A stretch of 64,000 bases of DNA from Candidatus Omnitrophota bacterium (GTDB lineage Bacteria; Omnitrophota; Gorgyraeia; JABMRG01). The stretch spans positions 50,458 through 114,457 of the forward strand of contig JAQUQI010000001.1 of assembly GCA_028716165.1 (NCBI GenBank), read 5' to 3'. Numbering within the stretch: the first letter of the stretch is position 1; every line of letters begins with the position of its first letter. Below, piece by piece: positions 41,706 through 58,152 of this stretch. The translations under genes were made by a program, and so were the position numbers. The notes under the pieces were generated by a model. The model saw only the letters and a list, made by a program, of their open reading frames with translations, was not told the DNA's origin and ran no database searches.

Positions 41706-43135
41706 ACAATATTTCCCACAAGAGTATTATCCTGGACGCCTGTTATTTTAACATCAAATATCTTTCCTATCAAAGATTTATCCGCCTTGCAGACTATTTG
41801 ATAATTTTTCATTGTCCGGGCCTTTATATAATAATCCTGCGCGCAAGCCAAACTATCGGGCGGCCTTTTAGCCGGCGAAAGCCCCAAAACGCTTTCAACG
41901 TTTCCGATAAACCCGACGATGTTTTCCCTCATTTTCCGCGCCTGAAGGTTAAGCAAATCCTGGTTGCGCCGCCTCTTGGCATCTTCGCTGACATCATCTT
42001 GCATCTTAAAAGATTCCGCGAAAGGCCTGGGTGAATATTTGAATATAAAAGCGCCGTCAAAACCTATTCTGTCCATAATATCGCGCGTATGCCCAAAGTC
42101 TTCTTCGGTTTCAGAGGGAAAGCCGACAATGATATCTGTCGTGATCGCGCATTCAGGCGCTATCTTTCTCATATCATCTACGAGCTTTTGATAATGCTTT
42201 GAACTATAGCCTCTGTTCATAAGCTTTAATATCCTGTCAGAACCCGACTGCAGGGGCAGATGCAGATGCTGGCAAACCTTATCAAGGCCTGCTATGGCCT
42301 TAAAAAGCTCAAGGTTGGCATCTTTAGGATGAGATGTCATAAACCTTATTCTCTCAAGCCCCGAAATCCTGTTTACCGATTGGAGCAATTTCACAAAATC
42401 ATTCTTGCCGCCTAATAAGGCCCTGCCCGAAGATTTGTAGGAATTCACGTTTTGGCCTAAAAGTGTTACTTCTTTAATACCCCTGTCAACAAGGTATTTT
42501 ATCTCTTCAATTACGCATCCGCGCGGGCGGCTTACTTCTCTGCCCCTTACATAAGGCACAATGCAATACGAACAAAAATTATTACAGCCATAGCTGATAT
42601 TGACGAATGAGCTGACATTATTTTCTCTATATAAATATAATGACTCGGCAGAGCCTTTTAAACCCTTCTCCCTGTCCAAAGGCCTACTTTCTTTTGAAAC
42701 AGAACAAATATGGCGCTTGCCGGAAGAAACCTTTTCAACCAAAGCGGGTATATCATAGATATTGGAAGGCCCGCAGACAAAGTCAACATGCTCAAGCCTT
42801 TTAAATACGTCCTTGCCATAGGCCTTGCCCATACAGCCTGCAAGCCCTATAATAATATCTCTATCAGGCATATCCTGCGCCAGGCCTGCTTTATTTGCCG
42901 GGCATTTACTACTTTCCTTGACCTTGAGGCGCTTCAGCTCGCTTAGCTTGCCCCAAACCCTGTCCTCGGCGTGCTTTCTAACAGCGCAGGTATTAAATAT
43001 TATGATATCCGCATCCTCGTATGACTGGGCAGGGACATAGCCTTTTCGTATCATCAGGCTATAAATGATCTCCGAATCCCGCTCATTCATCTGGCATCCG
43101 AACGTCTTTATATACACTCGTTTTAATTTATCCAT
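41702..43135 (-). CDS. miaB: tRNA-2-methylthio-N6-dimethylallyladenosine synthase
   Basis: N-terminal MTTase cluster (KTFGCQMNERDSE), radical-SAM CNNFCSYC cluster, and TRAM-like C-terminus. Confidence 0.9.
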   Translation of the reverse strand: MDKLKRVYIKTFGCQMNERDSEIIYSLMIRKGYVPAQSYEDADIIIFNTCAVRKHAEDRVWGKLSELKRLKVKESSKCPANKAGLAQDMPDRDIIIGLAGCMGKAYGKDVFKRLEHVDFVCGPSNIYDIPALVEKVSSGKRHICSVSKESRPLDREKGLKGSAESLYLYRENNVSSFVNISYGCNNFCSYCIVPYVRGREVSRPRGCVIEEIKYLVDRGIKEVTLLGQNVNSYKSSGRALLGGKNDFVKLLQSVNRISGLERIRFMTSHPKDANLELFKAIAGLDKVCQHLHLPLQSGSDRILKLMNRGYSSKHYQKLVDDMRKIAPECAITTDIIVGFPSETEEDFGHTRDIMDRIGFDGAFIFKYSPRPFAESFKMQDDVSEDAKRRRNQDLLNLQARKMRENIVGFIGNVESVLGLSPAKRPPDSLACAQDYYIKARTMKNYQIVCKADKSLIGKIFDVKITGVQDNTLVGNIV

Positions 43136-43212: not shown

Positions 43213-43909
43213 TTATAAATCCAAGTCAACAATAACCAGCATATGATCACCATATCTTAACCACTCTGAATTTCTACCTATTTTCATATGGCTAGCTTTT
43301 TTTGCGATACCCCTATCCGCAAAGATGTAATCTATATGGTATGGCTTATTCTTATTTCTTTGCAAATACAAAGTGGATCTCGTCTCCTTGCCCTGCTTTT
43401 CGTCGAAATATTCATGGTATAAGCTTTTAATCCCTAATTCTTTCAATTCTCTAACTACATCTGAATGATTCCACCATCTATCCCACTTATCCCAGATAAC
43501 ATTGCTATTAAAATCACCAGCAATGACGGCTTTTTTTAATTTTCTTTTATGTAGCTGAAGATATTTCCAAAACTGGCCTATATAGCCAAATGTTGGAGAA
43601 TTTGCGCCGTGACACCACACTCCAACAAGATTAAATGAACCGTTCACCCTACAGGGTATAAAATATTTTAGCCCCTTATTGTCCCAACCTAATTGTTCTA
43701 TCTTTATGTCCTCTTTAGCAAAAATGCCTAACCCTTTATTCTGGTTTTCCCCTGTCCAAATGTAATTATTAGCCCACCCTCTGAAATCATCATCCTTATT
43801 CTTTGCTGGGTTTTCACACTCCTGAATTACAACAATATCGGCTTTTATTTTTTTAAATATACAAATTTTTTCTTAACGCGCCGTTACAATTCCAAGTGAT
43901 TATTCTCAT
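43213..43909 (-). pseudogene. endonuclease/exonuclease/phosphatase (EEP) family gene disrupted by a frameshift in a T6/A6 run
   Basis: ATG at 43909 gives MRIITWNCNGALRKNLYI then a stop. A different frame continues FKKIKADIVVIQECENP...GDHMLVIVDLDL. Removing one base from the homopolymer at 43866-43871 restores a full EEP ORF. Confidence 0.6.
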
Positions 43910-44092: not shown

Positions 44093-44214
44093 TAAACCCC
44101 TTCCAATACGATAGCATTCATTTTTGTTGCTTTTTCACGTAATGGCGCGATCGCACGATACTCATCTGAATCCCACCAAGCTTGGAATCTATCCATAGAA
44201 TCGAACTCTACCAT
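44093..44214 (-). pseudogene. possible C-terminal remnant of a DUF1330-like gene
   Basis: 40-codon ORF (MVEFDSMDRFQAWWDSDEYRAIAPLREKATKMNAIVLEGV). It is cut off at its 5' side by repeat copy 1. The family assignment is from memory only. Confidence 0.2.
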
Positions 44215-44216
44215 GA

Positions 44217-44334
44217 TAACATACGTAGACGTCCTATTTGGTAACACCCTACATATAGCGGGGCGCTAAAAGTAAAAAGTTTTTTATATCCATTTGGCAG
44301 GGTGTAACTAAATAGGACGCCTGCTGATACCTAC
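44217..44334. repeat. copy 1 of a ~118-bp repeat with ~26-bp terminal inverted repeats (MITE-like)
   Basis: Near-identical copies at 58036-58152, 59220-59335 and 63213-63337. Termini are GTAGACGTCCTATTTGGTAACACCCT and AGGGTGTAACTAAATAGGACGCCTGC. Confidence 0.85.
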
Positions 44335-44452: not shown

Positions 44453-45052
44453 TCATTTGTTAGATTCTCTTTCCTTTGCTTTAAGCAACCGTTCTCTTGC
44501 TTTTGCAAAAATCTCTAATAATTTTGGTTGCATACCACTATTGAAAGTTCCACGCATATTAAAATGTCCATTAATTTCATTTACCATGGACTCGTATATT
44601 AATTTCTCAGCATCTTTCCATTCTTCAAAGCTAAAATAACTTGGGATTTTACCAGTTTCTGTATGATAGGCAGTTATCCACTCCCGTGTATTTTTTCCTC
44701 CAGAAAATTTTAAAGTTCTATCTATACTTTCTAAATAACGAGTAATATATAAATAATACTCATTTGGTGTTAATAAGCCTTTCTTTTCTTTTTCTTTTAA
44801 TTCCTTAAGGTCTTTGGACATCTCTGTTTGTCCTTGCAGTGTTTGATCTTGATATAATTCATTTCTGAAATCTTTATAATCTGTCGCCTTTTTCTCTCTC
44901 CAACCATACCATCCTTGGAATATTAAGCATAAGAAGATTATGGCAAATAACCCGATCTTAAATTCTTTAGTAATGCGATGTTCAGGAACAAAGCTGATAG
45001 CAGCACTGATTAGAGCAACAACAGCTATTGAAATAAAAAATGTCTTATCCAT
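44453..45052 (-). CDS. hypothetical membrane-anchored protein
   Basis: 199-aa ORF with two N-terminal hydrophobic segments and a charged coiled-coil-like C-terminus. No motif recognised. Confidence 0.4.
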   Translation of the reverse strand: MDKTFFISIAVVALISAAISFVPEHRITKEFKIGLFAIIFLCLIFQGWYGWREKKATDYKDFRNELYQDQTLQGQTEMSKDLKELKEKEKKGLLTPNEYYLYITRYLESIDRTLKFSGGKNTREWITAYHTETGKIPSYFSFEEWKDAEKLIYESMVNEINGHFNMRGTFNSGMQPKLLEIFAKARERLLKAKERESNK

Positions 45053-45058
45053 TTTAAA

Positions 45059-45247
45059 TTACTCCTTTAATTCACCACGCCACTTTTCAATATTTTTAAT
45101 ATCTTCTTTAGTAAAGACTGGATAATTGCGGTAATCACGTTTAGGTTTAACCCACCCCTTCTCTATCCAATTATAAAGAGTCTGACGGGTAATACCTAAT
45201 TCCCTTGCGGCATGAGTGATGTTATATATCTTATTCATAATGAGCAT
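45059..45247 (-). CDS. small helix-turn-helix DNA-binding protein (excisionase/AlpA- or MerR-like)
   Basis: 62 aa with ITHAARELGITRQTLYNWIEKGW, a typical excisionase-type HTH. Adjacent to repeat A. Confidence 0.5.
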   Translation of the reverse strand: MLIMNKIYNITHAARELGITRQTLYNWIEKGWVKPKRDYRNYPVFTKEDIKNIEKWRGELKE

Positions 45248-45299
45248 ATTTTACAGTATTAGACATTAATAGTCAATCTAAACTTTAGGTGGGAATAAA

Positions 45300-46010
45300 T
45301 TGGCTCGTAGCGCAAGGAGCGGAAACCGAAGGTTAACGCCTGAGCAACGAGACAATTTTTCGGGTGGGTGGGGGTTTCTCTTTCCACTGCTTTTTACTGG
45401 CAATTAGGGAATTGACAGACGGATTGCGAGCCGTGCGGGCGAGCAAGACGGAAAACATCAAAATCGCCCCCGCCATCGGCGGGGCATTACCCCCAAAAAG
45501 AATTTCTTTTTCTTTCTTTGCCCTCTTTAATTTTTTATTTTCGGAAACAGAAAAGAAACTGCAAGGCCAAAAAAATCAAAAAGGTTATAAAAATATGTCA
45601 AAAAAAATCTACATCCACACCTTCGGCTGACCCTTGGTTTGTTCTTTACAAGTTGGCTAAACCGTTCTTTTTCACGGCTTTTCAGGTTGAGTTGGCTGAA
45701 TAATGCACCGCCCGCTTCCGCCTCCTGAACGTCGGCTCCAGCGGGCTGCGTGGGTGGTGTTGGCACCGTTCGCCCCGCCTTGGGACGTGGCTCACTTGGC
45801 GGCCGCCTAGGCCGGCGGTCTTCGTGGTTGTGCAAGAGTACGATTCGGCTTTCCGTGTTTGGCGGATTTTGGACGGCGGCGAAAAATTTATAAAATGTGT
45901 TTTTGCTCTTCTTTAAGGGTGGGTGAGGCAAACGCACAAAGGGCGATGCGTAAATCCGAAGGATTAAAGCCGCCCGATTGCAATTGCCGAGGGAGGGAAA
46001 TTAGTACTAT
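45300..46010. repeat. mosaic repeat A (~0.7 kb, non-coding)
   Basis: 45620-45712 and 45801-45868 match the reverse complement of 57174-57279 and 57001-57152. 45895-45936 and 45307-45330 match 56595-56639 and 56981-57010 in direct orientation. Confidence 0.8.
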
Positions 46011-46031
46011 GTCCCCTGATTTAATGTTTTC

Positions 46032-46895
46032 TTATGTTTGTTTCTCTGGCTTATGGACTAAAATTCTATCTCCAGCAAACATTACTTCTTCTGGCTGGCC
46101 ACGAATAACTGCAATTGCATACCATTTCCATTCGCTTTCAACTCCGGCCAGTTTTCTTCTACCTTTCATTTTACTTCCGTATATAGTCCAACCTGAAGTT
46201 TCTAATTCACCCACCATATCAGAGACACGACTTGTAGCTTTCATTTGGCCAGGAATATCTATGTCATCCCAGATATCGCACCAATCTCGCAATTCTTGAA
46301 GGAAACCACCGACAAGATCGATTTCTGCATCATTATTAGGCTCGTCATTAAATGAATAAGAAAAATGACAGCTGGTTACAACATCAATAACTTCTCGGCC
46401 GGTGGTCAACCGTGGCATTACGGTTATTCGCTTTTGCCACGCTTCAATTATCCCGGGTTTTATTACTTCAATCAACTTTGCTAAAACAACATAGATACCC
46501 TCTTCCCATCTCCCTGCTATTCGATCTGCCAAAGTAGGCGAAAAAGATCTAATTTGCTTTGCGTCCATCTTAACCCAAATAGGGAGAATTACCTTCTCTC
46601 CATCTACTTCCCTTTGTGCCAACCCATCAAGTTCAAGCTTCGTATAGTGCTTATCAAAAAAAGCCGGGGACAAAACTGCAATACCGTAGCGGCTTTTCTT
46701 CAACCCTTCATCTATTTTATGTCGAAGGCTATCTCCAATTTTTAAATCAAACTGATCAAACCATACGCTTATTCCTAAAGAAGACAATAGCTGAGCAAGT
46801 GGTTTTGCAACTACCTCCCGATCTTCCGAGGCATATGAAATAAATACATCTTTCTCTACTGTAGAAGAATTATTCATTAAGCAATCCCATCTCAA
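46032..46895 (-). CDS. TIR-domain protein with uncharacterised C-terminal domain
   Basis: N-terminal TIR signature DVFISYASEDRE...SVWFD...GDSL...IAVLSP.F. It overlaps the 3' end of gajB by 26 nt, suggesting one operon. Confidence 0.65.
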   Translation of the reverse strand: MRWDCLMNNSSTVEKDVFISYASEDREVVAKPLAQLLSSLGISVWFDQFDLKIGDSLRHKIDEGLKKSRYGIAVLSPAFFDKHYTKLELDGLAQREVDGEKVILPIWVKMDAKQIRSFSPTLADRIAGRWEEGIYVVLAKLIEVIKPGIIEAWQKRITVMPRLTTGREVIDVVTSCHFSYSFNDEPNNDAEIDLVGGFLQELRDWCDIWDDIDIPGQMKATSRVSDMVGELETSGWTIYGSKMKGRRKLAGVESEWKWYAIAVIRGQPEEVMFAGDRILVHKPEKQT

Positions 46896-48816
46896 TCAAA
46901 AATCTTGAAGGCGTTTTACTCCATCCTCGATATTTTTCAGAATAGCTAAGTGTTAAACTTTTTATTGCCCGCGTAATCGCGACAAAGCAATTCCTCCGCT
47001 CTTCTTCCATTTCAGGACTCTTCTCGCCTTTTTGTTTACTCTGAAAAGATGGCAACTCATCTTCAACTAGACCAATCAAATATACATGATCAAATTCTTT
47101 GCCCTTTGCTCCATGTATTGACATAAGAACTACAGTATCGGGTTTTATCTTTGATTCTTTCGAGTGCAATTGTAATTCTTGCAAAAAGACCTCCAAAGAT
47201 AATTCTGTTCCAAGAGAAGCCGCTATTTCCTTAACAAGATCGTCCCAGACGGCGCGCTCTTCGTCATATCCCGCAAATACTTCTATACCTTGAGCGTTTG
47301 AAGCCACGTCTGGATTTTTTATCAGCTTGTCAAACCAGCTGATTGCATTCTTACAAAATAAACGGAAGTTCTTTTCGCCACCAATGAAGGCGAATACCTC
47401 AGCAATAATCTCTTTGGTTAAAACATCGCTACTCTTCTGCTCAGCAAATCTCATCCAATTTTGCAAGAAACCCAACGTCGAAGATTGCGCTTGCGTTACA
47501 ACTTCATCGGGGTCAATCTCAATGCCAACAAGTTGCTTAAATGCACCACACAAGGAATCTAAACTTGCCTTATCCTGCCGATTACTAGCAAGCCTTAAGA
47601 CCGAATGTAACCATACAAAAGGCGAACTAATAAACTCATCTTTCCTCTGCGCCACAACCGCAGGAATACCTTGATCTTGCAGTCCCTTAAAGGCCCCGTC
47701 TAATAACTTTCTGTTTCTGGCTAAAATAACAACAGATCCAAGCTGATTCGAGTAGCATTTTTTAATATCTTCACCAACGCCTTTTGCTTCTGTTTCAAAT
47801 TCAGGGAAGCGAGACAACAAACGCACCACATCCGCGCACTTACTAATTGGCTTATCTGCTAAAAGTGGTTTCTTCCCCGGAGATCTTAAAAAGTTATTAC
47901 TGATCAAATTATTCGCAATTGAAACAACCTCCGGAGGGCATCGATAATTCGTGGGCAACTGTAAAATTTCAGGGGAATAATCTTGAACAAATTGCTCGAT
48001 TCGCTTATGGCTCGCGCCGTTCCACTGATAAATAATCTGGTCATCATCAGCCACAATAAAAAAGTTTTTGTACTGATCCTCGGATAACGCTCTAATTAAT
48101 TTGTATTGTGCCTCATTTGTATCTTGAAATTCGTCTATGCATATGTAAGGATAAACTGTTCTATAACGTTTGGCAAAAGCCGGGAATTTCGTAAAAAGCC
48201 GGTAGGCCTGGAAAATCAACGAACTAAAATCTAAAGAATTTCGTCTTGATAATGCTTCTTCATAGGCTGGATAAACAACGGCCATGCGTTTTCCGAATTC
48301 CTTATCTCGAAAAACATCAACACACTGAGATGGCTCAATAAGAAACGATTTTAATCTTTGTATAACCGGCAATGTTTTCTTGTCGAGGTCAGATATTATA
48401 TCGCTTGTCTTCTTTGCTTCAGTTACCGCATCATCTAAAACGGCTTGAAGATCATAATCTTGAGAATAAATCTGAAAGTTTGGATTAATCCCTAAATGCA
48501 CTCCATGTTGACGTAATACATCCGCACAAAACGAATGGAATGTTCCTAAAAATAATCTGCTTTCTTGCCCCGGAACAAGATTAGCCACTCTTAAGCGCAT
48601 TTCGTCTGCGGCTTTATTAGTAAAAGTCAGGCCAAGAATTCTAAAATTCTTATCCTGACTTTTATCAAGAATCTTCGCTATACGACAGGTTAAAACTCTC
48701 GTCTTCCCAGACCCGGGGCCTGCAAGCACCAATAATGCCTCATCACCCCACTCAGCGGCTTTCTTCTGAACAAGACTTAATTTCTGCCATGCATTATCCA
48801 AGTCATTATTCGCCAT
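46870..48816 (-). CDS. gajB: UvrD/PcrA-like SF1 helicase (Gabija GajB-like)
   Basis: Walker A AGPGSGKT and helicase motifs (DEFQDTN, YRCPPEV). Immediately downstream of the OLD-family gene. Confidence 0.6.
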   Translation of the reverse strand: MANNDLDNAWQKLSLVQKKAAEWGDEALLVLAGPGSGKTRVLTCRIAKILDKSQDKNFRILGLTFTNKAADEMRLRVANLVPGQESRLFLGTFHSFCADVLRQHGVHLGINPNFQIYSQDYDLQAVLDDAVTEAKKTSDIISDLDKKTLPVIQRLKSFLIEPSQCVDVFRDKEFGKRMAVVYPAYEEALSRRNSLDFSSLIFQAYRLFTKFPAFAKRYRTVYPYICIDEFQDTNEAQYKLIRALSEDQYKNFFIVADDDQIIYQWNGASHKRIEQFVQDYSPEILQLPTNYRCPPEVVSIANNLISNNFLRSPGKKPLLADKPISKCADVVRLLSRFPEFETEAKGVGEDIKKCYSNQLGSVVILARNRKLLDGAFKGLQDQGIPAVVAQRKDEFISSPFVWLHSVLRLASNRQDKASLDSLCGAFKQLVGIEIDPDEVVTQAQSSTLGFLQNWMRFAEQKSSDVLTKEIIAEVFAFIGGEKNFRLFCKNAISWFDKLIKNPDVASNAQGIEVFAGYDEERAVWDDLVKEIAASLGTELSLEVFLQELQLHSKESKIKPDTVVLMSIHGAKGKEFDHVYLIGLVEDELPSFQSKQKGEKSPEMEEERRNCFVAITRAIKSLTLSYSEKYRGWSKTPSRFLIEMGLLNE

Positions 48817-48817
48817 T

Positions 48818-50734
48818 TTATCTCCCCAATGCCATGGAATCTTTTACTAAAGCAGAAAGAAAGTCGGGTACCCGATCTCCCTGCATATTTTTTCCCCGAA
48901 GTTTAGAAATCAACGCGTATGCATAGCCCACTTTATCTTTTCGGATAAGCGCTAATATTTCATTCCCATATTCAGCATCACCGGGCTTATTTTTTAACTT
49001 ATTGCCATTCCCCGTGATGAGCTCCGCATACTCAGCAACAAAACCATTTTTAATTAAGAATTCTTCTAAATCTTTACACGAATTAGGCCACAGCCTAATC
49101 GCGGTCTTAATTTGATCATCGCTGACACCACGATTCTTTACTTCTTTGATCGAATTCTTCCCCTGTTCATCGGTATCACACAGCATTAACCACGGAAAGG
49201 CAAATATTCGTGCTAACCCTACAAACAAACCAGCCGATCCATTATTTCTGTAATCAATTAAAGCAATGCCGTTGCAATCGAAAGACTGACCTAAAACTTC
49301 CGAGAAATAACGTACTATTGGATATTCTGATTGCCCTTCGCATAGAAGCCATGCCCGAGCAAAAAGAATTTCGCCTCTGATCCGCTTGACACATGTTTCT
49401 AACTTAATGAGATCTTGATCTGTTAAATGCAGACATGACTCCTCATATAAACTTTTGAGGTTTCCATGCAAATCAGTTTCGCCAGAATACATTGTTAAAA
49501 GCGACCGATATTCACTCTCTTCCATTTTCCCATTCAACGTTAATATCGATGTGGTCGAATCATAATGATACTTGGCAGATGATTGAGAACAAAAATTTTC
49601 TAATCCATCTTTGACCGGAAGCTTCACTGAAAATGAACGTTTAATACAATAAACATTAGATGCATTGTCGCCTCTCCTGAACAATCTAATGTCTTGGAAA
49701 GGAATTTCTTGAATAAAGTGGGGCGAATGAGAGGATATTATTTTTTGTGTCTTCAATTCGCATAAATTAGCGGCAAGCGCACGAATAGCTTGCGGATGCA
49801 AATGCGCCTCTGGCTCTTCCAATGTCAAAATAGCCTCTGTTTCTGATTCAAATGATGGCTTCAAAAGAATTTCAATATAAGCATAAAAAAGAAATAATAC
49901 AGTTAGACTTTGAATTCCTTGGCCATGACGGAGTAAAGGAATATCAATATCACTGCCCTTGGGCTTAATAACTACCTCTGATTTCGACATCAAATCCCAA
50001 GGCTTTAAAGGCACCGCCTGAATTGATGTATTACTGCCATCTCCAAAAGCCATAATTTTTTGGGCATTAGCAAAAGACGATCTAAATTTCTCAAGTCGAG
50101 GATCTGCCTTTAATAGATCCTTATTAATTTTCAGCAGATCTTCTCCGAGCGTTCTTCGCTGTTCATCACTAATCTTTAAATCTTTAAGAAATTTTCCCCA
50201 GTACTGCGACCTGACGGAAAACTCCTCGTCAGCATCCCGCAAAGCAGATAATGCGAATATTCGGATATAAGTTAAGAAGGCGGTAACATTACTGGCTTTT
50301 ACCTTTAAGACTTGTCCATCGATAGACAAAAATTCCACTCGGGGAGTGATAGTTTTGGTGACGGTGTCAGCTTTACTAGATAATCGTATACCGATAGAAT
50401 CGATATCTTTTATTGGATCCGTCTGGATAATGTCCTGAAGCGATTGAGATAACGATTCCGGCCATTCATCAGACTTGTCCTCGCGAAACCATAGCTCTAT
50501 TTCAATGCCTTCACTTGATAAAGGAGAATCCCCTGCTTTTGACATATAATAATCGTATTCATCGAATACAACGTTTTTCCCGTAAGAAGCCCGAGTCAAT
50601 ACGATTCGAATAGCCTCCAATAAAGCAGTTTTGCCGCTATTATTTTCTCCAATCAGAACGCAAGTGTCCGTAACGGACATCCGCATATCCTTAAGGCATC
50701 TAAAATTTTTTATAAAAATCTCTCTGAGTTTCAC
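48818..50734 (-). CDS. gajA: OLD-family ABC ATPase with C-terminal TOPRIM nuclease domain (Gabija GajA-like)
   Basis: N-terminus MKLREIFIKNFRCL...GENNSGKT is an OLD/RecF-like ATPase. The C-terminal Toprim has a glutamate in LLCEGQSE and a DTDEQG motif. 638 aa. Confidence 0.6.
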   Translation of the reverse strand: MKLREIFIKNFRCLKDMRMSVTDTCVLIGENNSGKTALLEAIRIVLTRASYGKNVVFDEYDYYMSKAGDSPLSSEGIEIELWFREDKSDEWPESLSQSLQDIIQTDPIKDIDSIGIRLSSKADTVTKTITPRVEFLSIDGQVLKVKASNVTAFLTYIRIFALSALRDADEEFSVRSQYWGKFLKDLKISDEQRRTLGEDLLKINKDLLKADPRLEKFRSSFANAQKIMAFGDGSNTSIQAVPLKPWDLMSKSEVVIKPKGSDIDIPLLRHGQGIQSLTVLFLFYAYIEILLKPSFESETEAILTLEEPEAHLHPQAIRALAANLCELKTQKIISSHSPHFIQEIPFQDIRLFRRGDNASNVYCIKRSFSVKLPVKDGLENFCSQSSAKYHYDSTTSILTLNGKMEESEYRSLLTMYSGETDLHGNLKSLYEESCLHLTDQDLIKLETCVKRIRGEILFARAWLLCEGQSEYPIVRYFSEVLGQSFDCNGIALIDYRNNGSAGLFVGLARIFAFPWLMLCDTDEQGKNSIKEVKNRGVSDDQIKTAIRLWPNSCKDLEEFLIKNGFVAEYAELITGNGNKLKNKPGDAEYGNEILALIRKDKVGYAYALISKLRGKNMQGDRVPDFLSALVKDSMALGR

Positions 50735-50776
50735 TGCTAATCCTCTTTAATACGGAGGTGATTCCTTTTCCCTAAT

Positions 50777-51304
50777 CTACACCGCCTCAAATACTCTTAT
50801 CTTATTCCGTACTTCTTCGAACATAACGTATTCGGGCCCCTTTGCCGTATCCCAATCGATTCCCTTATTCTTAAACCTTGGATCTGCACCTATCTCTATG
50901 TACATTTGATGATTACTTAGTTTGAACAAGACTTTACTTGCTTTTTCCAACAAAAAGAGATTCCGCGCAATTTCTTGAGTTTGCAATTTGTGCGCAATAT
51001 TGTGCGCTAAATCATTGCGATGTTCCCTCAATTCCTGAATAATCGAAACGTCATCAGAATCTATAATCTTCATAAAATCACGTAAATATAAAAGACAAGC
51101 TTCAAACTCATTCTTATGCCGAATTAAAACATCGTCTTCGTAAGACTTAAACGGCCCCCCTTCAGAAAACGTCATGTGCCAATAGAACGTTTTAATTGGC
51201 TTTACGATGAGACTTTTAACTAGTTCGAACGCAACTAAGATCAACCCAGCATAAGCGAGTGTTTGTGTAATCTCTCCATTTGTCAAATCACTAATTTTAT
51301 TCAT
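50777..51304 (-). CDS. hypothetical protein with N-terminal TM helix and HEPN-like Rx4H motif
   Basis: 175 aa with EHRNDLAHN. Sits between res and gajA. Confidence 0.35.
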   Translation of the reverse strand: MNKISDLTNGEITQTLAYAGLILVAFELVKSLIVKPIKTFYWHMTFSEGGPFKSYEDDVLIRHKNEFEACLLYLRDFMKIIDSDDVSIIQELREHRNDLAHNIAHKLQTQEIARNLFLLEKASKVLFKLSNHQMYIEIGADPRFKNKGIDWDTAKGPEYVMFEEVRNKIRVFEAV

Positions 51305-51482
51305 CGTTACTTTTATCTATCATCCTTCCGGAATTTCTTCTCGCATTTTGGACATTCGACTTCGTTATCGAAAAACAGGCTGCACGGCACATCGGCGCCG
51401 CAGTGCGGGCATTTCACGACGTCTGCGCCCATGGTGAAATCGTAGCCTAGAAACTCATTGAACGAATCATCGCCGGGCATTG

Positions 51483-54398
51483 TTAAAACAGGGTGCCCTG
51501 AATCATATTCTTGGTTATCTTTAGATAATTAAAAATCTCAAGAATGTTGGCTCCCTGATCCCGCATGCTATAGAACGTATTTTCGCCCACCAGCACATAT
51601 TCCCACTCCGCACCCATCCGGTCCTCCGGCTTCAGCTGATTGATCCTCTCGACCCAGTCGATGGTTGCCAGCTGCTTGAGCTTTACGTTTTCAACCGAAA
51701 TCTTATCCTGCCCCTTGGTTTCGACGATATAACTCCTGCCCTTGGTCTTTACTATGAAATCGGGAGAATAAGACGCCAGCATCCCATCGGATCGCACGTA
51801 ATTGATGCGGGCGAAATAGTGATAATTTTCATTAACCTTAACGAACGCCTCTACGTTGGTATCGCTATCGCAAAACTCCATAAAGGCTTTTTCCAGCCCG
51901 CCTTTATTCGAAGGATATGACTGCTTCTCATAAATCGTTTTGACAATATCAAGGCAATACTTCTCTCTCATTCTCAACGTCGCGATTTCCGAGAAGTGCC
52001 GCTTGATAATCGTTGCCTCGGAAATATCAATATTATTCTGCAGTTCAAAAATTGCCTTGCTTATCTGTTTGATAATATGTTCCACAATGCCGGTTTGCGA
52101 AAGCAATAATACGCGCCAATTATTCTCAAAAAAAGGGTCGAACTCCTGCTTGAATAACTTTTCCCGGACAAATTTATCAATCGCCCTGGCAACCTCGACC
52201 TGATTAACCTGCATAGAGGGATATTCTTTTGTCTTGCGCGCGCTTACCTTAACAATCATTGTAGAAACAGCATTAACGATCTTCCCGATAAACTCGTTAT
52301 AGCTCTTTGAATTAAAAACGTCTGCCTTGACCTCATAATCACCGAAGCGGGTCTTGACCGTCATCTCTTCGGAGTAAAAGATATCGCCGCCCTTAGGCAC
52401 CATCTTTTTGAGCTGTTCCAACCCATAAAAATCGAACGATGCCAGTTTGTCAGCGTCGATCTCCGTAGGCATAAGGTTCTCTTCCCGGTCAATAAGAATA
52501 ATCGGGAAATACAAATCGTAGTCCTTGTAATTGCTCTTGAGCCCTACGTTTATGATGTCGCCCAGGACATCCGTTCTGTCTTTGGGTTCGGTCTCGATCA
52601 CTGGCGCCTCTTTGATTAACTCATCATAAAATTCTATGAATGCCGGATGCTCAATAATACTTAAAATATCCATGCAATTCTTAGGCTCTTGTTTCTTCTG
52701 AAGAAGAGCAGTTCTATTTTCGTCCTTGCTTTCCTGATATTCCGGCTCGCGCCACATAAGCCGTAGGCCCCGCCCAATAACCTGCTCAAGAAGAATAGGC
52801 GCCTGGCTTGAGCGCAAAGGCACGGTAACGCAAATATTGTTGATATCAAACCCCTCACGTAACATCAAAACCGAAATAATCACTTTCGGCTGAGGATGCT
52901 TGTCCACATTAAAAAGCCGCTGCTTCAGCTGAAACCACTCATCCTGCGGCACGGACCCTTTTTTATCAGAGTCGATCTGCGCTACGTCCTTTTCATCCAG
53001 GCCCTCGTACTTTGTCAGATACTCCACGACATGCGGCGTAACTTTAGTATCCTCGCAAACAACGAACATCTTGGGATATTTTGAACATTCGGCCCCATCT
53101 GTTAACGAGGTAAAATGTTCCTCCAGTTTTTTAAGCTTGGCTAAACCCGCCCTCAGCATTGTCTTTTGTCCATTAGATAATCCTACGACCTCCCGACCGT
53201 CACGCTCCGCCTTGAAATCCAAAGGCAACGAGGCAATCTCCTTGCGACGGTCAAGCGCTATGGTCTTGACAAGGCCCATGTGGATTGCCGTACGAAGGTC
53301 GAAATCAATCACTATGTGTGGGAAATAGTGCTTCGTTCTTTTCTGACCGCTCCCGGTCACATCATATGGTGTAGCTGAAAAGTCTATCTGGATAAATTTC
53401 GATCCTTTGTCTGAACTGATATAAGAAAGGCTTCGCTGCCACTCAACCTCCTGAATATCGCCATACGTCTTGTTCTCATGGATATGGTGGGCTTCATCAT
53501 TGATAACAACTAAATCTTTTAACCTCTTCAAAAACTCAAGCTCATTGCCTTTAAGATACTGATTGTCCAGCGTCTCCAAGGAATGACCTGCGGATATTCC
53601 CGGCCGTATCGGCAGAATATCATCAACGATTTTGCTCGGATCTTCTAATGGTGAAATCTCGACAGATTCTTCATCATCAAGGCCTGACAGCAAATGCCAG
53701 TTTGTTATGGCGATAAGGCCGTCGCCCGTAACTTTTCTGCCGATTTCTTCCTTCCTGCAAACACTGCTCTGGATAAAGCCAAAAATCTCCTCGCTAAACC
53801 AGGGAGGAATAAATAAGGCCTCGTACTGCTTGAAGTCCGAAGATAAGAAACTACGCTGCCCTTCCTCATCCTCCTTGCCCAGATACGCATCCAATAGCCG
53901 CTCGTAAACAATCAGCCCCGGAGCCACAAGAAGAAAATTCTTGGAATACCAGCCGCTTAGCGCTTCTTCATGTTTCGCGTTTAGATACTGCCAAATGAGA
54001 AGCGCGTGCATTACCCAGGTTTTTCCGGTTCCGGTAGCCATTTTCATCGCGTACTTGGGATGCTGATATTTTGCCTTTTTAAGCTCGACCTTGTCCATCT
54101 CGGCAAGTATCTCGTCATCCACAAGGGAATACATATCAAAGACCGTTGCGGGCTTCAAAACCTCATGCACATAAATGGTATTCATGATGGCCTGCTTCTG
54201 GCCGATATGAAAGTTGATATTGCGGTTCTCGCAGAAATTATCCTCAAACCAGAACCGTAAGAGATCCCTGGTTACGGGGGTGAATTTTTCGATAAAAGCA
54301 GGGTCCTTAAGATTGAACTGGCTGTTAATGCTATCGGTAAGCCTTCTGGCAAAACGAAGCGGGATGTCCCGGGTGCCGATGTTAAGAGGCGTGGGCAT
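51483..54398 (-). CDS. res: Type III restriction enzyme, Res subunit (SF2 helicase-nuclease)
   Basis: Walker A TGTGKT and DEAH box VINDEAHH. 971 aa. Its start overlaps the mod stop. Confidence 0.8.
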   Translation of the reverse strand: MPTPLNIGTRDIPLRFARRLTDSINSQFNLKDPAFIEKFTPVTRDLLRFWFEDNFCENRNINFHIGQKQAIMNTIYVHEVLKPATVFDMYSLVDDEILAEMDKVELKKAKYQHPKYAMKMATGTGKTWVMHALLIWQYLNAKHEEALSGWYSKNFLLVAPGLIVYERLLDAYLGKEDEEGQRSFLSSDFKQYEALFIPPWFSEEIFGFIQSSVCRKEEIGRKVTGDGLIAITNWHLLSGLDDEESVEISPLEDPSKIVDDILPIRPGISAGHSLETLDNQYLKGNELEFLKRLKDLVVINDEAHHIHENKTYGDIQEVEWQRSLSYISSDKGSKFIQIDFSATPYDVTGSGQKRTKHYFPHIVIDFDLRTAIHMGLVKTIALDRRKEIASLPLDFKAERDGREVVGLSNGQKTMLRAGLAKLKKLEEHFTSLTDGAECSKYPKMFVVCEDTKVTPHVVEYLTKYEGLDEKDVAQIDSDKKGSVPQDEWFQLKQRLFNVDKHPQPKVIISVLMLREGFDINNICVTVPLRSSQAPILLEQVIGRGLRLMWREPEYQESKDENRTALLQKKQEPKNCMDILSIIEHPAFIEFYDELIKEAPVIETEPKDRTDVLGDIINVGLKSNYKDYDLYFPIILIDREENLMPTEIDADKLASFDFYGLEQLKKMVPKGGDIFYSEEMTVKTRFGDYEVKADVFNSKSYNEFIGKIVNAVSTMIVKVSARKTKEYPSMQVNQVEVARAIDKFVREKLFKQEFDPFFENNWRVLLLSQTGIVEHIIKQISKAIFELQNNIDISEATIIKRHFSEIATLRMREKYCLDIVKTIYEKQSYPSNKGGLEKAFMEFCDSDTNVEAFVKVNENYHYFARINYVRSDGMLASYSPDFIVKTKGRSYIVETKGQDKISVENVKLKQLATIDWVERINQLKPEDRMGAEWEYVLVGENTFYSMRDQGANILEIFNYLKITKNMIQGTLF

Positions 54399-56305
54399 TA
54401 CTTCACCTCCTCGATAACCGCGCTTTCAAAGCCAAAGACATCAACGGCTTTTATGCAAACCCTGCGCTTATGTTTCAGTTTCGGGACGCGCAGTTTGGTG
54501 TTTCTTACCACGCGCATCGGGTCATCATCCACCTCGGTATTGCCGCGATAATCCTGCCACTTGCTCCTAAAAACCTCTCCGTCATAATCCGGGTCTATAC
54601 TCCAATACTCGATCAGGGCCAGGGGATCCCTGGCGATTATTTCCTGCAATTTCTCCTTGTCTTTCTCCTCAAGCGGCAGCGCATCCGGAGAAAGAAGCAC
54701 ATAATTATCAAGCTTGACGGAAATTTCCTCTTCTTCCTTATTGAGCTCTTCCATATGAACCGGCTTAACGGAAAGATACTGCAGTGATGAAAAGCGTATT
54801 TTCCCACCCTTGATTAATTTCTGGTATGATGACTTGGTTTTAAGCCTATCAAGTAAATCTGGAGGAATAACAAGCACTTCAATATGCGGGTCATTAAGAT
54901 TTGCTATAACCTGCCCGATATCGGTTACGAAATTCCATCCCAGCACCACGACCTTCTTCCATCCGCCCATAAAGCTTGCGCGCAATTCCTGTGCCCTCTT
55001 AAGCGTTCCATAGCCGGTTAGCTTTGATGGCGAATCTACCATTACAAGCGTCCGGGACTCCTTAATGTATCCCAGGTTTCTCTGGGTAGGCTCTACATCC
55101 GAGAAGGGAATGGCACCATATAGATTGAGTACCACATGAGCAAGGTCGCTTACACGTCGGAACTCGCTTTTTTCGAATTGCTCTTTCTGGTAATCGCCAA
55201 TGCATTGGTATAAGAATGGTTTTGCGTCTTGATCAATAAGGCGTTTCCGCATAACCATACAGGATGGCTTGCCAATATCAACCGTAATCCAACGTCGCCC
55301 AAGTTTTTCTGCAACAGATCCAGTCGTTCCTGACCCGGCAAAGAAATCCGCGATAATCGAACCTTCTTTTGATGATGCTTTAATTATTCTTTCCAATAGC
55401 CTCTCGGGTTTTTGTGTTTGAAATCCTAAGTGCTCTGGTAATGCATGAAAAACTTGAACTATATTATTTTCTTTTCTATCAATCCATGTCCATACATCAT
55501 CGGCTTTTCTTCCTTCATCTGCATAATAACGCGTTGCGTTATTATTGCCTGACATCCGATATTTTCTACCCTTCTCATCTGTAAAAGGATAGATAGATTC
55601 ATCCTTAACCATTAGACGAATTTCGTTAAAAACATTCTCCGTTCCTTTACAATAAAATAATAGATTATCATGTTTTTTCGCAAATCCATTTTGAGGAGCT
55701 GTTCCTGCCTGATAGTGCCAAATAATTTCATTTCTAAAATTATTTTTCCCAAAAATATCATCCATCAATACTTTTACATAGTGCCCAACATGCCAATCTA
55801 AATGAACATATATTGAACCTTGCTCCGATAAAAGTTCTCGCATCAAGCAAATCCTCGGATAAAGCATCTTAAGATAACTCGCCGTTCCATCCTTCCAAGT
55901 ATCAGAATACGCAAATTGTTCAATGACTGTTGGCTTTTGTTCAATATCGCCGTTAGGCAAGGTAATTTTTGTGCGATAATCAGCTTTGGAATCAAACGGC
56001 GGGTCAATATAAATAAGATCTATTTTGCCGCGCATAGAGGGAAAGGCGGTTGACGGATCACCCGAGAGAAGTGCCTGCATCACTAAAAGATTATCGCCGT
56101 AAATCAAACGATTAAACCACTCCTTTTTATCAATCTCCCTGACGGCACCGCGGAAGAGTCCAGAACGCTCTTTGGACGGCAAAACATATTCATTTGTCTG
56201 CAAAACAATTCTTTCCTTTTCGGAAAGCTCGTTTAAAATCCTCTCCGCCTCCTTTTTTCCTTCGGCTACAATTTTTGGCAGTTGTTCAATTAATGATTCA
56301 GGCAT
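54398..56305 (-). CDS. mod: Type III R-M DNA methyltransferase, Mod subunit
   Basis: DPPF motif (IYIDPPFDSKADY) and a SAM-binding region (FFAGSGTTG). Confidence 0.8.
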   Translation of the reverse strand: MPESLIEQLPKIVAEGKKEAERILNELSEKERIVLQTNEYVLPSKERSGLFRGAVREIDKKEWFNRLIYGDNLLVMQALLSGDPSTAFPSMRGKIDLIYIDPPFDSKADYRTKITLPNGDIEQKPTVIEQFAYSDTWKDGTASYLKMLYPRICLMRELLSEQGSIYVHLDWHVGHYVKVLMDDIFGKNNFRNEIIWHYQAGTAPQNGFAKKHDNLLFYCKGTENVFNEIRLMVKDESIYPFTDEKGRKYRMSGNNNATRYYADEGRKADDVWTWIDRKENNIVQVFHALPEHLGFQTQKPERLLERIIKASSKEGSIIADFFAGSGTTGSVAEKLGRRWITVDIGKPSCMVMRKRLIDQDAKPFLYQCIGDYQKEQFEKSEFRRVSDLAHVVLNLYGAIPFSDVEPTQRNLGYIKESRTLVMVDSPSKLTGYGTLKRAQELRASFMGGWKKVVVLGWNFVTDIGQVIANLNDPHIEVLVIPPDLLDRLKTKSSYQKLIKGGKIRFSSLQYLSVKPVHMEELNKEEEEISVKLDNYVLLSPDALPLEEKDKEKLQEIIARDPLALIEYWSIDPDYDGEVFRSKWQDYRGNTEVDDDPMRVVRNTKLRVPKLKHKRRVCIKAVDVFGFESAVIEEVK

Positions 56306-56484
56306 TATCTCTCCCTTTTATTTTTATCTTTCTGCATCGCCTGGTTAATAAATCCCCTGATGATAGACACAACGGATGCGTTCTTATTTTGCTTCTGCAA
56401 CTCGAGGGCTTTTTCTTTCAGAAAAAAATACTGGTCTTGCGTGATTTCAATTGTCGTTTTCTTTATGCGTTTATTGGCAGGCAT
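56305..56484 (-). CDS. small ribbon-helix-helix-like protein, candidate controller of the Type III R-M operon
   Basis: 59-codon ORF (MPANKRIKKTTIEITQDQYFFLKEKALELQ...). Its stop overlaps the mod ATG (TAATG). Shorter than the ORF-track cutoff. Confidence 0.35.
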   Translation of the reverse strand: MPANKRIKKTTIEITQDQYFFLKEKALELQKQNKNASVVSIIRGFINQAMQKDKNKRER

Positions 56485-56559
56485 GTTTCGCTCCTTGATT
56501 GTTGCTTGACTATTTTACCCGTATACCCATATTTATGGATTATAGCACAATACATTGCT

Positions 56560-57290
56560 TTTGGAAACAAAAAAACCTCTAAGGGACAAGTAATCACACA
56601 AAGGGCGTTGCGGAAGCCCAAAGGGCTGAAGCCGCCCGGCTGTGACTGTTGGGCGGAGTTTTTTAAAATCCAAATATTCATCAAAGCAACGCGAACCCGA
56701 AGGGCAAAAGTCTTTCCGCCGAAGGCGGAATGTCTTTTGGCGGTGCGATCTGTTCTGGTTTTTTGAAAAAAAGACAGAAGTGTTGATGAATATTTGATAC
56801 AAGGTTTCTTTTCCTTTTTGGGGAAAAGTAGGCTTTGAGCGCAGGCAACGGAAGCCCGAAGGGCTGAAGTCCGAGCACAAAGACTGCTTTAGGTGGGTGG
56901 GGTATATAGAACCACCTCTGTTACCAAGATAGATTCGGCTTTGCCCCGACAAGCGATGTCCCGAAATGAATACGGGACAATCGCGCAGGCGGGGCGCGGA
57001 CGAAACCGAACAAAAACACCTTTTATAAATTTTTCGCGGCCGCCGATATAAAAAAGGAATAATTTAAGAGAATTTTTGCGAGGTTGAGGACGCTAAAGTG
57101 TTTGGCGAATTTTGGGTGGGGGCAAAATTCGCCAAACACGAAAAGCCGAATCGAACCCTTGCATAGGAAATGCTGGCGGTGCATCATTACCCCTTACATT
57201 GCCGTTAACTCAACTTGAAAAGCCGTAAAAAAGAACGGTTTAGCGAACTTGTAAAGAACAAACCAAGGGTCAGCCGAAAGTCCTCAGAAA
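56560..57290. repeat. mosaic repeat B (~0.7 kb, non-coding), partner of repeat A
   Basis: See repeat A. It contains two copies (56603-56639, 56843-56880) of a hairpin motif also present at 45901-45936. Confidence 0.8.
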
Positions 57291-58041: not shown

Positions 58042-58152
58042 ACGTGGACGTCCTATTTGGTAACACCCTACATATGGCGGGGCGCTAAAAGTAAGAAGTT
58101 TTTTATATCTATTTGGCAGGGCGTAACTAAATAGGACGCCTGCTGATACCTC
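58036..58152. repeat. copy 2 of the ~118-bp repeat
   Basis: Alignment to the 44217-44334 copy. Confidence 0.85.

What the first reader, a model, noticed from the sequence alone, without database searches (positions are those of the whole stretch)
46032..51304. Gabija-like gajA-gajB pair co-transcribed with a TIR-domain gene and preceded by a HEPN-like gene
An OLD-family ATPase-Toprim protein (48818-50734) is followed 1 nt later by a UvrD-like helicase (46870-48816). This is the class-2 OLD plus helicase arrangement that defines Gabija. Here the helicase gene overlaps a downstream TIR-X fusion protein by 26 nt, where X is an unrecognised ~150-aa C-terminal domain. A small TM protein with a HEPN-like motif lies 43 nt upstream. 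Canonical Gabija is a two-gene system. A TIR NADase coupled to GajAB would be an unusual four-gene variant, possibly linking nucleic-acid sensing to NAD+ depletion.
Basis: partly seen in the sequence, partly recalled or inferred. Interest (0 to 1): 0.75.

Follow-up and report, generated by a model that had tools for sequence, protein, structure and literature searches.

The report
Gabija with TIR and HEPN neighbours
This is an ordinary two-gene Gabija anti-phage system, packed into one operon-like array with a restriction system and two uncharacterised, independently mobile single-gene modules (a membrane-anchored HEPN protein and a TIR enzyme with a new sensor-like domain), not a demonstrated four-gene Gabija variant.

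Summary
All four ORFs and their domain assignments are real. GajA (class 2 OLD ATPase-Toprim) and GajB (UvrD-like) match curated Gabija models end to end and keep the catalytic motifs. The downstream gene is an AbTIR-like TIR with its catalytic Glu, fused to a confidently folded, unannotated C-terminal domain ("X"). The upstream gene has a hydrophobic N-terminal helix and a canonical RNDLAH HEPN motif.

Comparative genomics does not support a four-gene Gabija. The TIR-X family occurs without GajAB in 13 of 13 genome loci and as a solitary gene at 67-69% identity. The TM-HEPN family lacks GajA in about 38 loci with room downstream. GajAB relatives at 82-83% and 66-68% identity are plain two-gene units.

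A 5.45-kb cassette (Zn-ribbon ORF, TM-HEPN, GajA, GajB, TIR-X) does recur at about 80% nucleotide identity behind three different restriction-like systems. It is mosaic and confined to a narrow clade.

New points: X is a portable module also fused to Cap5-like HNH, Xre-HTH and Schlafen domains. TM-HEPN resembles Csx28 in architecture only. Functional coupling remains possible but unshown.

The parts
56539..56567 (-). Sigma-70-like promoter match (TTTCCA-17-TATAAT with extended TG) upstream of the array. Context only, predicted.
   Evidence: 10 of 12 matches. The number of such sites in the region is no higher than in shuffles, so this is only a candidate.
56305..56484 (-). 59-aa ORF of possible ribbon-helix-helix (controller protein) type. 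Its stop overlaps the Mod start (TAATG). First gene of the array (context).
   Evidence: translation. The RHH assignment is my reading of the sequence and was not tested with a profile.
54398..56305 (-). Type III restriction-modification methyltransferase (Mod). Context: a separate defence system in the same array.
   Evidence: PADLOC MTase_III, 258 bits.
51483..54398 (-). Type III restriction enzyme (Res). Context.
   Evidence: PADLOC REase_III, 76 bits. Overlaps Mod by 1 nt.
51313..51480 (-). 55-aa Zn-ribbon ORF (two CxxC pairs). First gene of the conserved 5.45-kb cassette.
   Evidence: sub-threshold Zn-ribbon families; cassette homology to L081, L082 and L174 begins at 51471; it precedes TM-HEPN only in the clade that also carries GajA.
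50777..51304 (-). TM-HEPN: 175-aa protein with an N-terminal hydrophobic helix (aa 16-34) and a canonical HEPN Rx4H motif (R96-H101). A member of a widespread, unannotated, independently mobile family.
   Evidence: For mobility.
48818..50734 (-). GajA: class 2 OLD nuclease (ABC-type ATPase plus Toprim). Walker A GENNSGK35T, Toprim E466, D520-x-D522.
   Evidence: Defining residues taken from PMC10781630.
46870..48816 (-). GajB: UvrD/PcrA/Rep-like SF1 helicase with Walker A GPGSGKT and a DEFQD (DEXQD) box.
46443..46877 (-). TIR domain of TIR-X (aa 1-145). AbTIR/PdTIR-like, with the catalytic-position Glu E82 invariant in the family.
46032..46442 (-). X domain of TIR-X (aa 146-281) plus the stop codon. 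A confidently folded alpha/beta domain with no Pfam, NCBIfam or PDB-sequence relative. A portable module also fused to HNH_2, Xre-HTH and Schlafen domains.
   Evidence: pLDDT 93-97; no hits; architectures; the partner HNH is Cap5-like.
45935..45976 (-). Extended hairpin followed by a U-rich tract, about 55 nt after the TIR-X stop. Candidate terminator of the array.
   Evidence: MFE -32.6 kcal/mol, z = -2.7. It is not a canonical intrinsic terminator. The second copy of the element, at 56583-56638, is not significant.
45619..45693 (.). Left arm of an imperfect inverted repeat that brackets the 11.6-kb block (partner at 57207-57281, 95% complementary; further patches at 45831-45908 and 57008-57163).
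   Evidence: Only two copies in the window and none in the fetched loci. Significance unknown.

Best explanation
The locus is a compact defence-island array from a Candidatus Omnitrophica MAG. A canonical, self-sufficient two-gene Gabija system sits between two autonomous hitchhiker defence genes, downstream of a type III restriction-modification system.

Gabija (mechanism inferred by homology to the Bacillus system): GajA is an OLD-family ATPase-Toprim nuclease and GajB is a UvrD-like helicase. They are expected to form a GajA-tetramer/GajB complex that cleaves DNA once infection relieves nucleotide inhibition.

TIR-X is most likely a single-protein sensor-effector. The X domain occupies the position that SAVED holds in TIR-SAVED and in HNH-SAVED (Cap5). 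I infer that it senses a still unknown trigger and drives assembly of the AbTIR-like TIR domain, which hydrolyses NAD+ and aborts infection.

TM-HEPN is most likely a membrane-anchored HEPN toxin or effector, acting either as an RNase or, like Csx28, as a membrane-perturbing oligomer.

The eight genes (RHH-like ORF, Mod, Res, Zn-ribbon, TM-HEPN, GajA, GajB, TIR-X) are probably co-transcribed. That reflects how small defence genes attach to the 3' ends of existing operons, not biochemical dependence. The five-gene cassette persists in one narrow clade by linkage and perhaps by additive or synergistic protection.

Shown here: gene content, domains, motifs, module boundaries and distribution. Inferred: all activities, the trigger and co-transcription.
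For: Canonical Gabija: full-length PADLOC GajA and GajB matches. Walker A, Toprim Glu, DxD and the DEXQD box are all present.

GajAB is autonomous: blastn homology to L170 and L172 covers exactly gajA-gajB (window 50733..46874) and nothing else. Relatives at 82-83% identity have a type I RM or housekeeping genes upstream, and a Hypoth_Ymh/PD-Lambda-3_B gene or a methyltransferase downstream. Relatives at 66-68% identity are bare two-gene inserts among housekeeping genes.

TIR-X is autonomous:
- 0 of 13 full-length genome loci have GajA or GajB within 10 kb.
- Its neighbours there are HNH, type III Res, a prophage tail gene, HEPN-TPR, a resolvase and ArdC.
- At 70% identity it overlaps an Abi_C gene that follows a PDC-S06 gene.
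- At 77% identity it follows another TIR gene.
- At 69% and 67% identity it is a solitary gene, in L180 between opposite-strand housekeeping genes.
- Homology of the window to L088 covers only the TIR-X gene.

TM-HEPN is autonomous: the family has 582 members at 55-90% identity across phyla. In 80 metagenome loci GajA follows only in the three closest cassette copies. None of 38 non-cassette loci with more than 750 nt downstream has GajA. Its neighbours are heterogeneous: AAA_15, reverse transcriptases, Abi_C, Schlafen, HNH, integrase, transposase and housekeeping genes.

Mosaicism: per-gene identities to the window differ strongly between cassette copies. L081 shows HEPN 69, GajA 79, GajB 85, TIR-X 93. 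L174 shows 90, 89, 85, 73. Cassette TIR-X alleles are not monophyletic.

Literature: Gabija is described as a two-gene system (PMC10781630; PMC13069673). A systematic TIR survey set standalone TIR proteins aside as a distinct class and mentions no Gabija or helicase link.
Against: - A contiguous 5.45-kb block (window 51471..~46024; the L174 alignment stops at 46099), holding Zn-ribbon, TM-HEPN, GajA, GajB and TIR-X, is conserved at 79-81% nucleotide identity behind three different upstream systems: a type III RM here, a PLD-SNF2 helicase plus MmeI-like methyltransferase in L081-L087, and a DUF499 protein in L174. That is longer persistence than chance adjacency would suggest.
- gajB and TIR-X overlap by 8 nt, which suggests translational coupling.
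- Two divergent TIR-X alleles (93-100% and 73%) both sit directly after gajB.
- The Zn-ribbon ORF is found only where GajA is also present.
- X-domain genes lie directly next to TM-HEPN in two non-cassette loci (L103, L116). There are no such extra hits in 1.04 Mb of control defence-rich loci. This hints at some functional affinity between the two accessory families.
- No experiment was possible.
Confidence: 0.6

Rival explanations
1. A real multi-gene Gabija variant. Within this clade TIR-X and/or TM-HEPN (with the Zn-ribbon protein) work with GajAB. They could be second effectors triggered by GajAB activity or by its inhibition by phage anti-Gabija proteins, adding NAD+ depletion or membrane/RNA damage to DNA cleavage. 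The analogy is Csx28, which boosts Cas13b.
For: The five-gene cassette is conserved at about 80% nucleotide identity in at least three flanking contexts. gajB and TIR-X overlap by 8 nt. Two divergent TIR-X alleles both sit after gajB. The Zn-ribbon ORF is restricted to GajA-bearing copies. There is precedent for a 177-aa TM plus HEPN accessory protein activated by a nuclease system (Csx28, bioRxiv 10.1101/2021.11.02.466367).
Against: Equally close GajAB pairs (82-83% identity) lack both accessory genes and carry other genes in the same slots. Both accessory families occur overwhelmingly without GajAB. In L174 the overlap is replaced by a 7-nt gap. The cassette is mosaic. No literature links Gabija with TIR.
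Confidence: 0.2
2. TM-HEPN and X-domain proteins form a facultative two-gene system of their own, with X as sensor/regulator and TM-HEPN as effector. In this cassette that pair brackets a Gabija insert, making nested systems.
For: An HNH_2-X gene lies 2 nt downstream of TM-HEPN in L103. An Xre-HTH-X gene lies 30 nt upstream of TM-HEPN in L116. Both families are rare. Neither family turns up beyond the query position in 1.04 Mb of TIR-selected control loci.
Against: Only 2 of roughly 33-38 non-cassette TM-HEPN loci with room on a given side have an X gene. 0 of 13 TIR-X genome loci contain TM-HEPN. No locus shows TM-HEPN directly adjacent to TIR-X without GajAB between them. Gene order differs between L103 and L116.
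Confidence: 0.1
3. A Thoeris-like signalling pair. TIR-X acts as a ThsB-type signal producer (cADPR isomer) and TM-HEPN as the signal-activated effector.
For: The TIR domain scores on PADLOC ThsB models (107 bits) and is closest to AbTIR, which is deposited in the PDB as an NAD(+) hydrolase. Many new Thoeris effectors are TM proteins or RNases (bioRxiv 10.64898/2025.12.03.692087).
Against: The two genes are separated by 3.9 kb of GajAB and never co-occur outside the cassette. TM-HEPN has no room for a ligand-binding domain, being 175 aa of TM helix plus helical bundle. TIR-X is often solitary, which is the class that survey set aside as not signalling systems.
Confidence: 0.03

Closest known systems
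Gabija (GajA/GajB of Bacillus cereus VD045; class 2 OLD nucleases such as Thermus scotoductus OLD, PDB 6P74)
   Same: An ATPase-Toprim OLD nuclease immediately followed by a UvrD-like helicase. Walker A, Toprim Glu, DxD and the DEXQD box are all present. Full-length matches to curated GajA and GajB profiles.
   Different: Very distant in sequence from the studied Bacillus GajA (about 30 bits by phmmer) and closer to TsOLD (66 bits). Here it is embedded in an eight-gene array with accessory genes. The complex and its activity are untested.
Type II Gabija (GajB plus MazF-like GajC; Nucleic Acids Res 2026, PMC13069673)
   Same: A precedent that Gabija modules recombine with other effector genes.
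   Different: There GajA is replaced. Here GajA is intact and the extra genes are additions with lives of their own.
AbTIR/PdTIR bacterial TIR NADases and plasmid DUF1883-TIR proteins (PADLOC candidate PDC-S66)
   Same: The TIR domain is 40-55% identical and the catalytic-position Glu is conserved.
   Different: Domain order and partner domain differ. Here TIR is N-terminal and is followed by the new X domain. In PDC-S66/DUF1883-TIR the TIR is C-terminal. Only the TIR half of the PDC-S66 profile matches.
TIR-SAVED and HNH-SAVED (Cap5) effector-sensor fusions of CBASS and type III CRISPR
   Different: X is about 125 aa with no detectable similarity to SAVED. No cyclase or other signal generator is linked to it, and the gene is often solitary.
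Csx28, the accessory protein of type VI-B2 CRISPR-Cas13b
   Same: Almost the same size (177 vs 175 aa), with a single N-terminal TM helix followed by a four-helix bundle carrying a HEPN motif. A small gene appended to a nuclease-based defence system.
   Different: No sequence similarity and no specific structural match. The motif here is canonical RNxxxH, not divergent. It is not associated with Cas13.
Thoeris ThsB
   Same: A TIR domain protein in a defence island, with moderate scores on ThsB profiles.
   Different: No ThsA or other conserved effector gene is adjacent in any context examined.

Membership tests
Gabija | GajA has an N-terminal ABC-type ATPase domain with Walker A | tested here: met
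   AAA_15 at 120 bits over 1-341. GENNSGK35T.
Gabija | GajA has a C-terminal Toprim domain with an invariant Glu and a DxD motif (E379 and D432/D434 in BcGajA, PMC10781630) | tested here: met
   OLD-like_TOPRIM at 41.7 bits over 457-522. LLCE466G and D520-T-D522 aligned with the TsOLD Toprim. Defining residues.
Gabija | An adjacent UvrD/PcrA/Rep-like helicase (GajB) with a DEXQD box | tested here: met
   UvrD-helicase at 232 bits plus UvrD_C. GPGSGKT and DEFQD in the translation. 1-nt gap from gajA.
Gabija | Full-length match to curated Gabija profiles | tested here: met
   PADLOC GajA PDLC00062 at 668 bits (1-631 of 638). GajB PDLC00114 at 857 bits (9-647 of 648).
Gabija | The two genes form a self-contained unit | tested here: met
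   Relatives at 82-83% and 66-68% identity occur as bare gajA-gajB pairs. Homology to L170 and L172 ends exactly at the pair's borders.
Gabija | A GajA-tetramer/GajB supramolecular complex, nucleotide-regulated DNA cleavage and phage defence | not testable with these tools
   Needs biochemistry and phage assays.
   They are present only in a narrow subgroup (window, L081-L087, L174). They are absent from L170-L173 (82-83%) and from L176 and L177 (66-68%).
   TIR-X: 0 of 13 genome loci have GajAB, and there are solitary copies. TM-HEPN: 0 of 38 non-cassette loci with room downstream have GajA.
Catalytic TIR NADase (AbTIR-like) | TIR fold with the conserved catalytic-position glutamate | tested here: met
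Catalytic TIR NADase (AbTIR-like) | NAD+ hydrolysis or cyclisation activity | not testable with these tools
   Needs an enzyme assay.
Thoeris | The TIR gene is paired with a conserved adjacent effector gene (ThsA or another Ths effector) | tested here: not met
   No conserved neighbour in 13 genome loci or in L088, L178, L179 and L180.
HEPN superfamily | Rx4-6H motif | tested here: met
   R96-N-D-L-A-H101. R96 and H101 are nearly invariant and N97 is invariant in 30 sequences.
HEPN superfamily | A profile match above a curated threshold | tested here: not met
   HEPN_Swt1 scores 22.2 bits against a cut-off of 27.5. Sub-threshold hits to four HEPN families occur in 13 of 30 members.
HEPN superfamily | An alpha-helical bundle fold similar to solved HEPN domains | tested here: inconclusive
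Csx28 | Sequence or structural homology to Csx28, and linkage to Cas13b | tested here: not met

The most novel reading that the evidence does not exclude
The conserved five-gene cassette (Zn-ribbon, TM-HEPN, GajA, GajB, TIR-X) is a functional unit. In it the small membrane HEPN protein and the TIR-X sensor-effector act as accessory arms of Gabija. For example, they might fire when GajAB is activated or when it is blocked by phage anti-Gabija proteins. This would link DNA sensing to NAD+ depletion and membrane or RNA damage. The X domain would then define a new family of portable immune sensor domains shared by TIR, Cap5-like HNH, Schlafen and Xre-HTH proteins.
Probability: 0.2. Interest if true: 0.75.

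Novelty: new variant of a known kind. Interest (0 to 1): 0.42.

Why it matters
The Gabija core is ordinary, so the headline claim of a TIR-coupled four-gene Gabija should not be taken at face value.

What is worth keeping:
1. Two widespread, unannotated candidate single-gene defence families. TIR-X has about 2,000 relatives. TM-HEPN has about 580 relatives at unusually high conservation.
2. The X domain is a well-folded, portable C-terminal module fused to four kinds of N-terminal domain (TIR, Cap5-like HNH, Schlafen, Xre-HTH). That is the signature of an immune sensor domain not yet described.
3. This is a clean natural example of how defence operons are assembled: three modules with sharp, gene-exact recombination boundaries, stacked behind interchangeable restriction systems.

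If the cassette turned out to be functionally integrated, it would be the first Gabija with accessory effectors and a parallel to Csx28 with Cas13b.

Tried and rejected
- Rfam over the whole window at gathering threshold, and over 45200-46100 at E up to 1: nothing credible. No tRNA genes.
- Searching for a sequence-conserved partner of TM-HEPN by all-against-all BLAST of neighbours in 80 loci: none found.
- The Csx28 homology idea was rejected at the sequence level and kept only as an analogy.
- The viral-contig scan with GajB found nothing. The plasmid collection holds no TM-HEPN and no full-length TIR-X.
- The Thoeris-like reading was rejected on distribution.
- The 56-nt repeat as a shared terminator: only the copy after TIR-X folds better than shuffles.
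- The inverted repeats bracketing the 11.6-kb block could not be linked to any transposase or found in any other locus. They are left unexplained.


Full report
**What is in the sequence**

On the minus strand, the region 46032-56484 is one co-directional, tightly packed array:

| Gene | Coordinates | Junction with the next gene |
|---|---|---|
| 59-aa ORF of possible ribbon-helix-helix type | 56305-56484 | stop overlaps the Mod start |
| type III Mod | 54398-56305 | 1-nt overlap |
| type III Res | 51483-54398 | 2-nt gap |
| 55-aa Zn-ribbon ORF | 51313-51480 | 8-nt gap |
| 175-aa small protein (TM-HEPN) | 50777-51304 | 42-nt gap |
| GajA | 48818-50734 | 1-nt gap |
| GajB | 46870-48816 | 8-nt overlap |
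| TIR gene (TIR-X) | 46032-46877 | last gene |

Homologs, including the 100% identical database entry from a Candidatus Omnitrophica MAG, begin at the ATG at 46877. The gajB/TIR overlap is thus 8 nt (ATGAATAA), not 26 nt.

A promoter-like site lies upstream of the first ORF (56567-56539). No convincing minus-strand terminator lies inside the array. A stable hairpin with a U-rich tail follows the TIR stop (z = -2.7). Co-transcription is plausible but only predicted.

**Identity of the parts**

- **GajA** matches the PADLOC GajA model over its full length (668 bits). It carries AAA_15 plus OLD-like Toprim, Walker A GENNSGK35T, the Toprim Glu (E466) and DxD (D520/D522). Its closest solved relative is the Thermus class 2 OLD nuclease 6P74. 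These are the features that define GajA in PMC10781630.
- **GajB** matches the PADLOC GajB model at 857 bits and has a DEFQD box.
- **The C-terminal ~135 aa ("X")** fold confidently (pLDDT 93-97). They have no Pfam, NCBIfam, PDB-sequence or viral-structure relative.

**Do the accessory genes belong to Gabija? From the TIR-X side**

The TIR-X family is large (1,962 hits) and conserved along its whole length across many phyla.

- In 13 genomes with full-length copies, none has GajA or GajB within 10 kb. The neighbours are HNH, type III Res, a prophage tail gene plus resolvase, HEPN-TPR and ArdC.
- At 70% identity it overlaps the end of an Abi_C gene that follows a PDC-S06 gene.
- At 77% identity it follows another TIR gene.
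- At 69% and 67% identity it is a solitary gene among housekeeping genes.

**From the TM-HEPN side**

The family has 582 relatives at 55-90% identity. Among 80 metagenome loci, GajA follows only in the three closest copies. None of 38 non-cassette loci with more than 750 nt downstream has GajA. Neighbours are heterogeneous.

**From the Gabija side**

GajB relatives form a tight 82-87% group and a huge 64-68% group. In the tight group:

- L174 has the full set behind a DUF499 gene.
- L170/L171 have a type I RM, then GajAB, then a Hypoth_Ymh/PD-Lambda-3_B gene.
- L172/L173 have housekeeping genes, then GajAB, then a methyltransferase.

At 66-68% identity GajAB is a bare pair among housekeeping genes.

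**Module boundaries**

Nucleotide comparison gives gene-exact borders.

- Window 51471..46024, from the Zn-ribbon start to just past the TIR-X stop, aligns as one block at 79-81% identity to L081 and L082. L174 aligns over 51471..46099, and L087 from 51393.
- Only 50733..46874 (gajA-gajB) aligns to L170 and L172.
- Only 46871..46057 (TIR-X) aligns to L088.

So there are three modules: [Zn-ribbon + TM-HEPN], [GajA + GajB] and [TIR-X]. The five-gene combination exists behind at least three different restriction-like systems.

The combination is mosaic. Identities to the window are HEPN 69, GajA 79, GajB 85 and TIR-X 93 in L081, against 90, 89, 85 and 73 in L174. Cassette TIR-X alleles are not monophyletic. 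The Zn-ribbon ORF accompanies TM-HEPN only where GajA is present.

**What TIR-X and TM-HEPN probably are**

Searching X alone against 1.84 billion representative proteins finds 356 clusters. Among 56 of them the N-terminal partners are:

| N-terminal partner of X | Count (of 56) |
|---|---|
| Xre-type HTH | 21 |
| HNH_2 | 20 |
| TIR | 5 |
| Schlafen/AlbA_2 | 1 |

The HNH of an HNH-X protein matches CBASS SAVED-HNH (Cap5-type) effector models. X therefore sits where SAVED sits in TIR-SAVED and HNH-SAVED. I infer that it is a sensor or assembly domain that controls an N-terminal effector, and that TIR-X is a single-protein sensor plus NADase. Its trigger is unknown.

TM-HEPN has the size and layout of Csx28: 177 aa, one N-terminal TM helix, a four-helix HEPN-like bundle, and a pore that boosts Cas13b (bioRxiv 10.1101/2021.11.02.466367). 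No homology is detectable. It often sits 8-10 nt behind the last gene of unrelated operons. This is the behaviour of a hitchhiking toxin or effector gene.

**A residual signal for coupling**

An X-domain HMM finds X genes directly adjacent to TM-HEPN in two non-cassette loci: L103 (HNH-X, 2 nt downstream) and L116 (HTH-X, 30 nt upstream). In 1.04 Mb of TIR-selected control loci, TM-HEPN does not appear and X appears only at the query position. TM-HEPN is also absent from all 13 TIR-X genome loci. The association is therefore real-looking but of low penetrance. I keep it as a rival reading.

**Comparison with the literature**

- Gabija is described as a two-gene system (PMC10781630).
- The only named variant replaces GajA with a MazF-like GajC (PMC13069673).
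- A systematic survey of TIR systems set standalone TIR proteins aside and reports no link to Gabija, helicases or HEPN (bioRxiv 10.64898/2025.12.03.692087).
- Gabija is a frequent co-occurrer with other systems in environmental genomes (PMC12881386).

**Verdict**

The best-supported reading (about 0.6) is a canonical Gabija flanked by two autonomous, mobile single-gene defence modules within a defence-island operon. A narrow-clade five-gene cassette may be kept together by linkage or synergy. A functionally integrated variant has about 0.2 probability.

Interest is moderate. The Gabija part is known. The X domain, and the TM-HEPN and TIR-X families, are the new leads.

Noticed in passing
window 45619-45693 and 57207-57281 (also 45831-45908 / 57008-57163; direct copies at 45921-45976 / 56583-56638): Imperfect inverted repeats bracket the whole 11.6-kb block from the TIR-X gene to the ORF upstream of Mod. 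The longest arm is 75 nt at 95% complementarity. There are only two copies in the 64-kb window and none in any fetched locus. They could be the ends of a non-autonomous mobile element, an invertible segment, or a duplicated intergenic element.
   Followed up: partly
window 44214-44332, 58033-58151, 59217-59335, 63217-63335: A 119-nt element occurs four times in the same orientation (76-96% identity over the full 119 nt; 94-96% by local BLAST). Each copy has an internal 38-nt inverted repeat, and the copies lie mostly between genes of the island. One 1,184-nt interval holds a single ORF (58184-59152). This looks MITE-like or like a recombination site, which hints that the island is built from cassettes.
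   Followed up: partly
window 45250-46030: About 780 nt of non-coding, partly GC-rich sequence lies between the TIR-X stop and a MerR-like gene. There is no Rfam match, even at a permissive threshold.
   Followed up: partly
window 60259-62058 (-): A 599-aa DUF7380 + DUF4209 protein matches the PADLOC defence candidate PDC-S39 over its full length (394 bits). The island therefore extends well beyond the finding. It is flanked by unannotated 220-, 257-, 322- and 323-aa ORFs.
   Followed up: partly
window 63444-63932 (-): A Fic/DOC family protein (82 bits) at the edge of the window, in the same low-GC island.
   Followed up: no
window 44453-45247 (-): A 62-aa MerR-type HTH gene is followed 6 nt later by a 199-aa protein with strongly hydrophobic N-terminal segments and no family match. 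This is a possible further two-gene module downstream of the cassette.
   Followed up: no
window 41702-43135 (-) and L176 8230-9492: A MiaB-like radical-SAM gene lies close to GajAB in two places: the island boundary here, and directly after GajAB in the 68% identical L176 locus (DnaK-DnaJ-GajAB-MiaB-like). This may be a shared integration hotspot.
   Followed up: no
L103 7089-7799; L116 489-1115: HNH_2-X and Xre-HTH-X proteins lie directly adjacent to TM-HEPN genes, outside any Gabija context. The HNH is of the Cap5 (SAVED-HNH) effector type.
   Followed up: partly
L178 132-3077: A tandem of a 331-aa TIR protein, a TIR-X gene (77% identical to the window's) and a DUF6602 gene. It is another context in which TIR-X is stacked with other immune genes.
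   Followed up: no
L170 9979-12084: In a GajAB locus at 83% identity, the slot after gajB holds a Hypoth_Ymh protein matching PD-Lambda-3_B/HEPN models, followed by a Schlafen-ATPase gene. The position after gajB looks like a hotspot for different defence genes.
   Followed up: partly
window 43213-43647 (-): A 144-aa ORF with a weak, partial match to the C-terminal part of the endonuclease/exonuclease/phosphatase family. It is probably a gene fragment at the island border.
   Followed up: no
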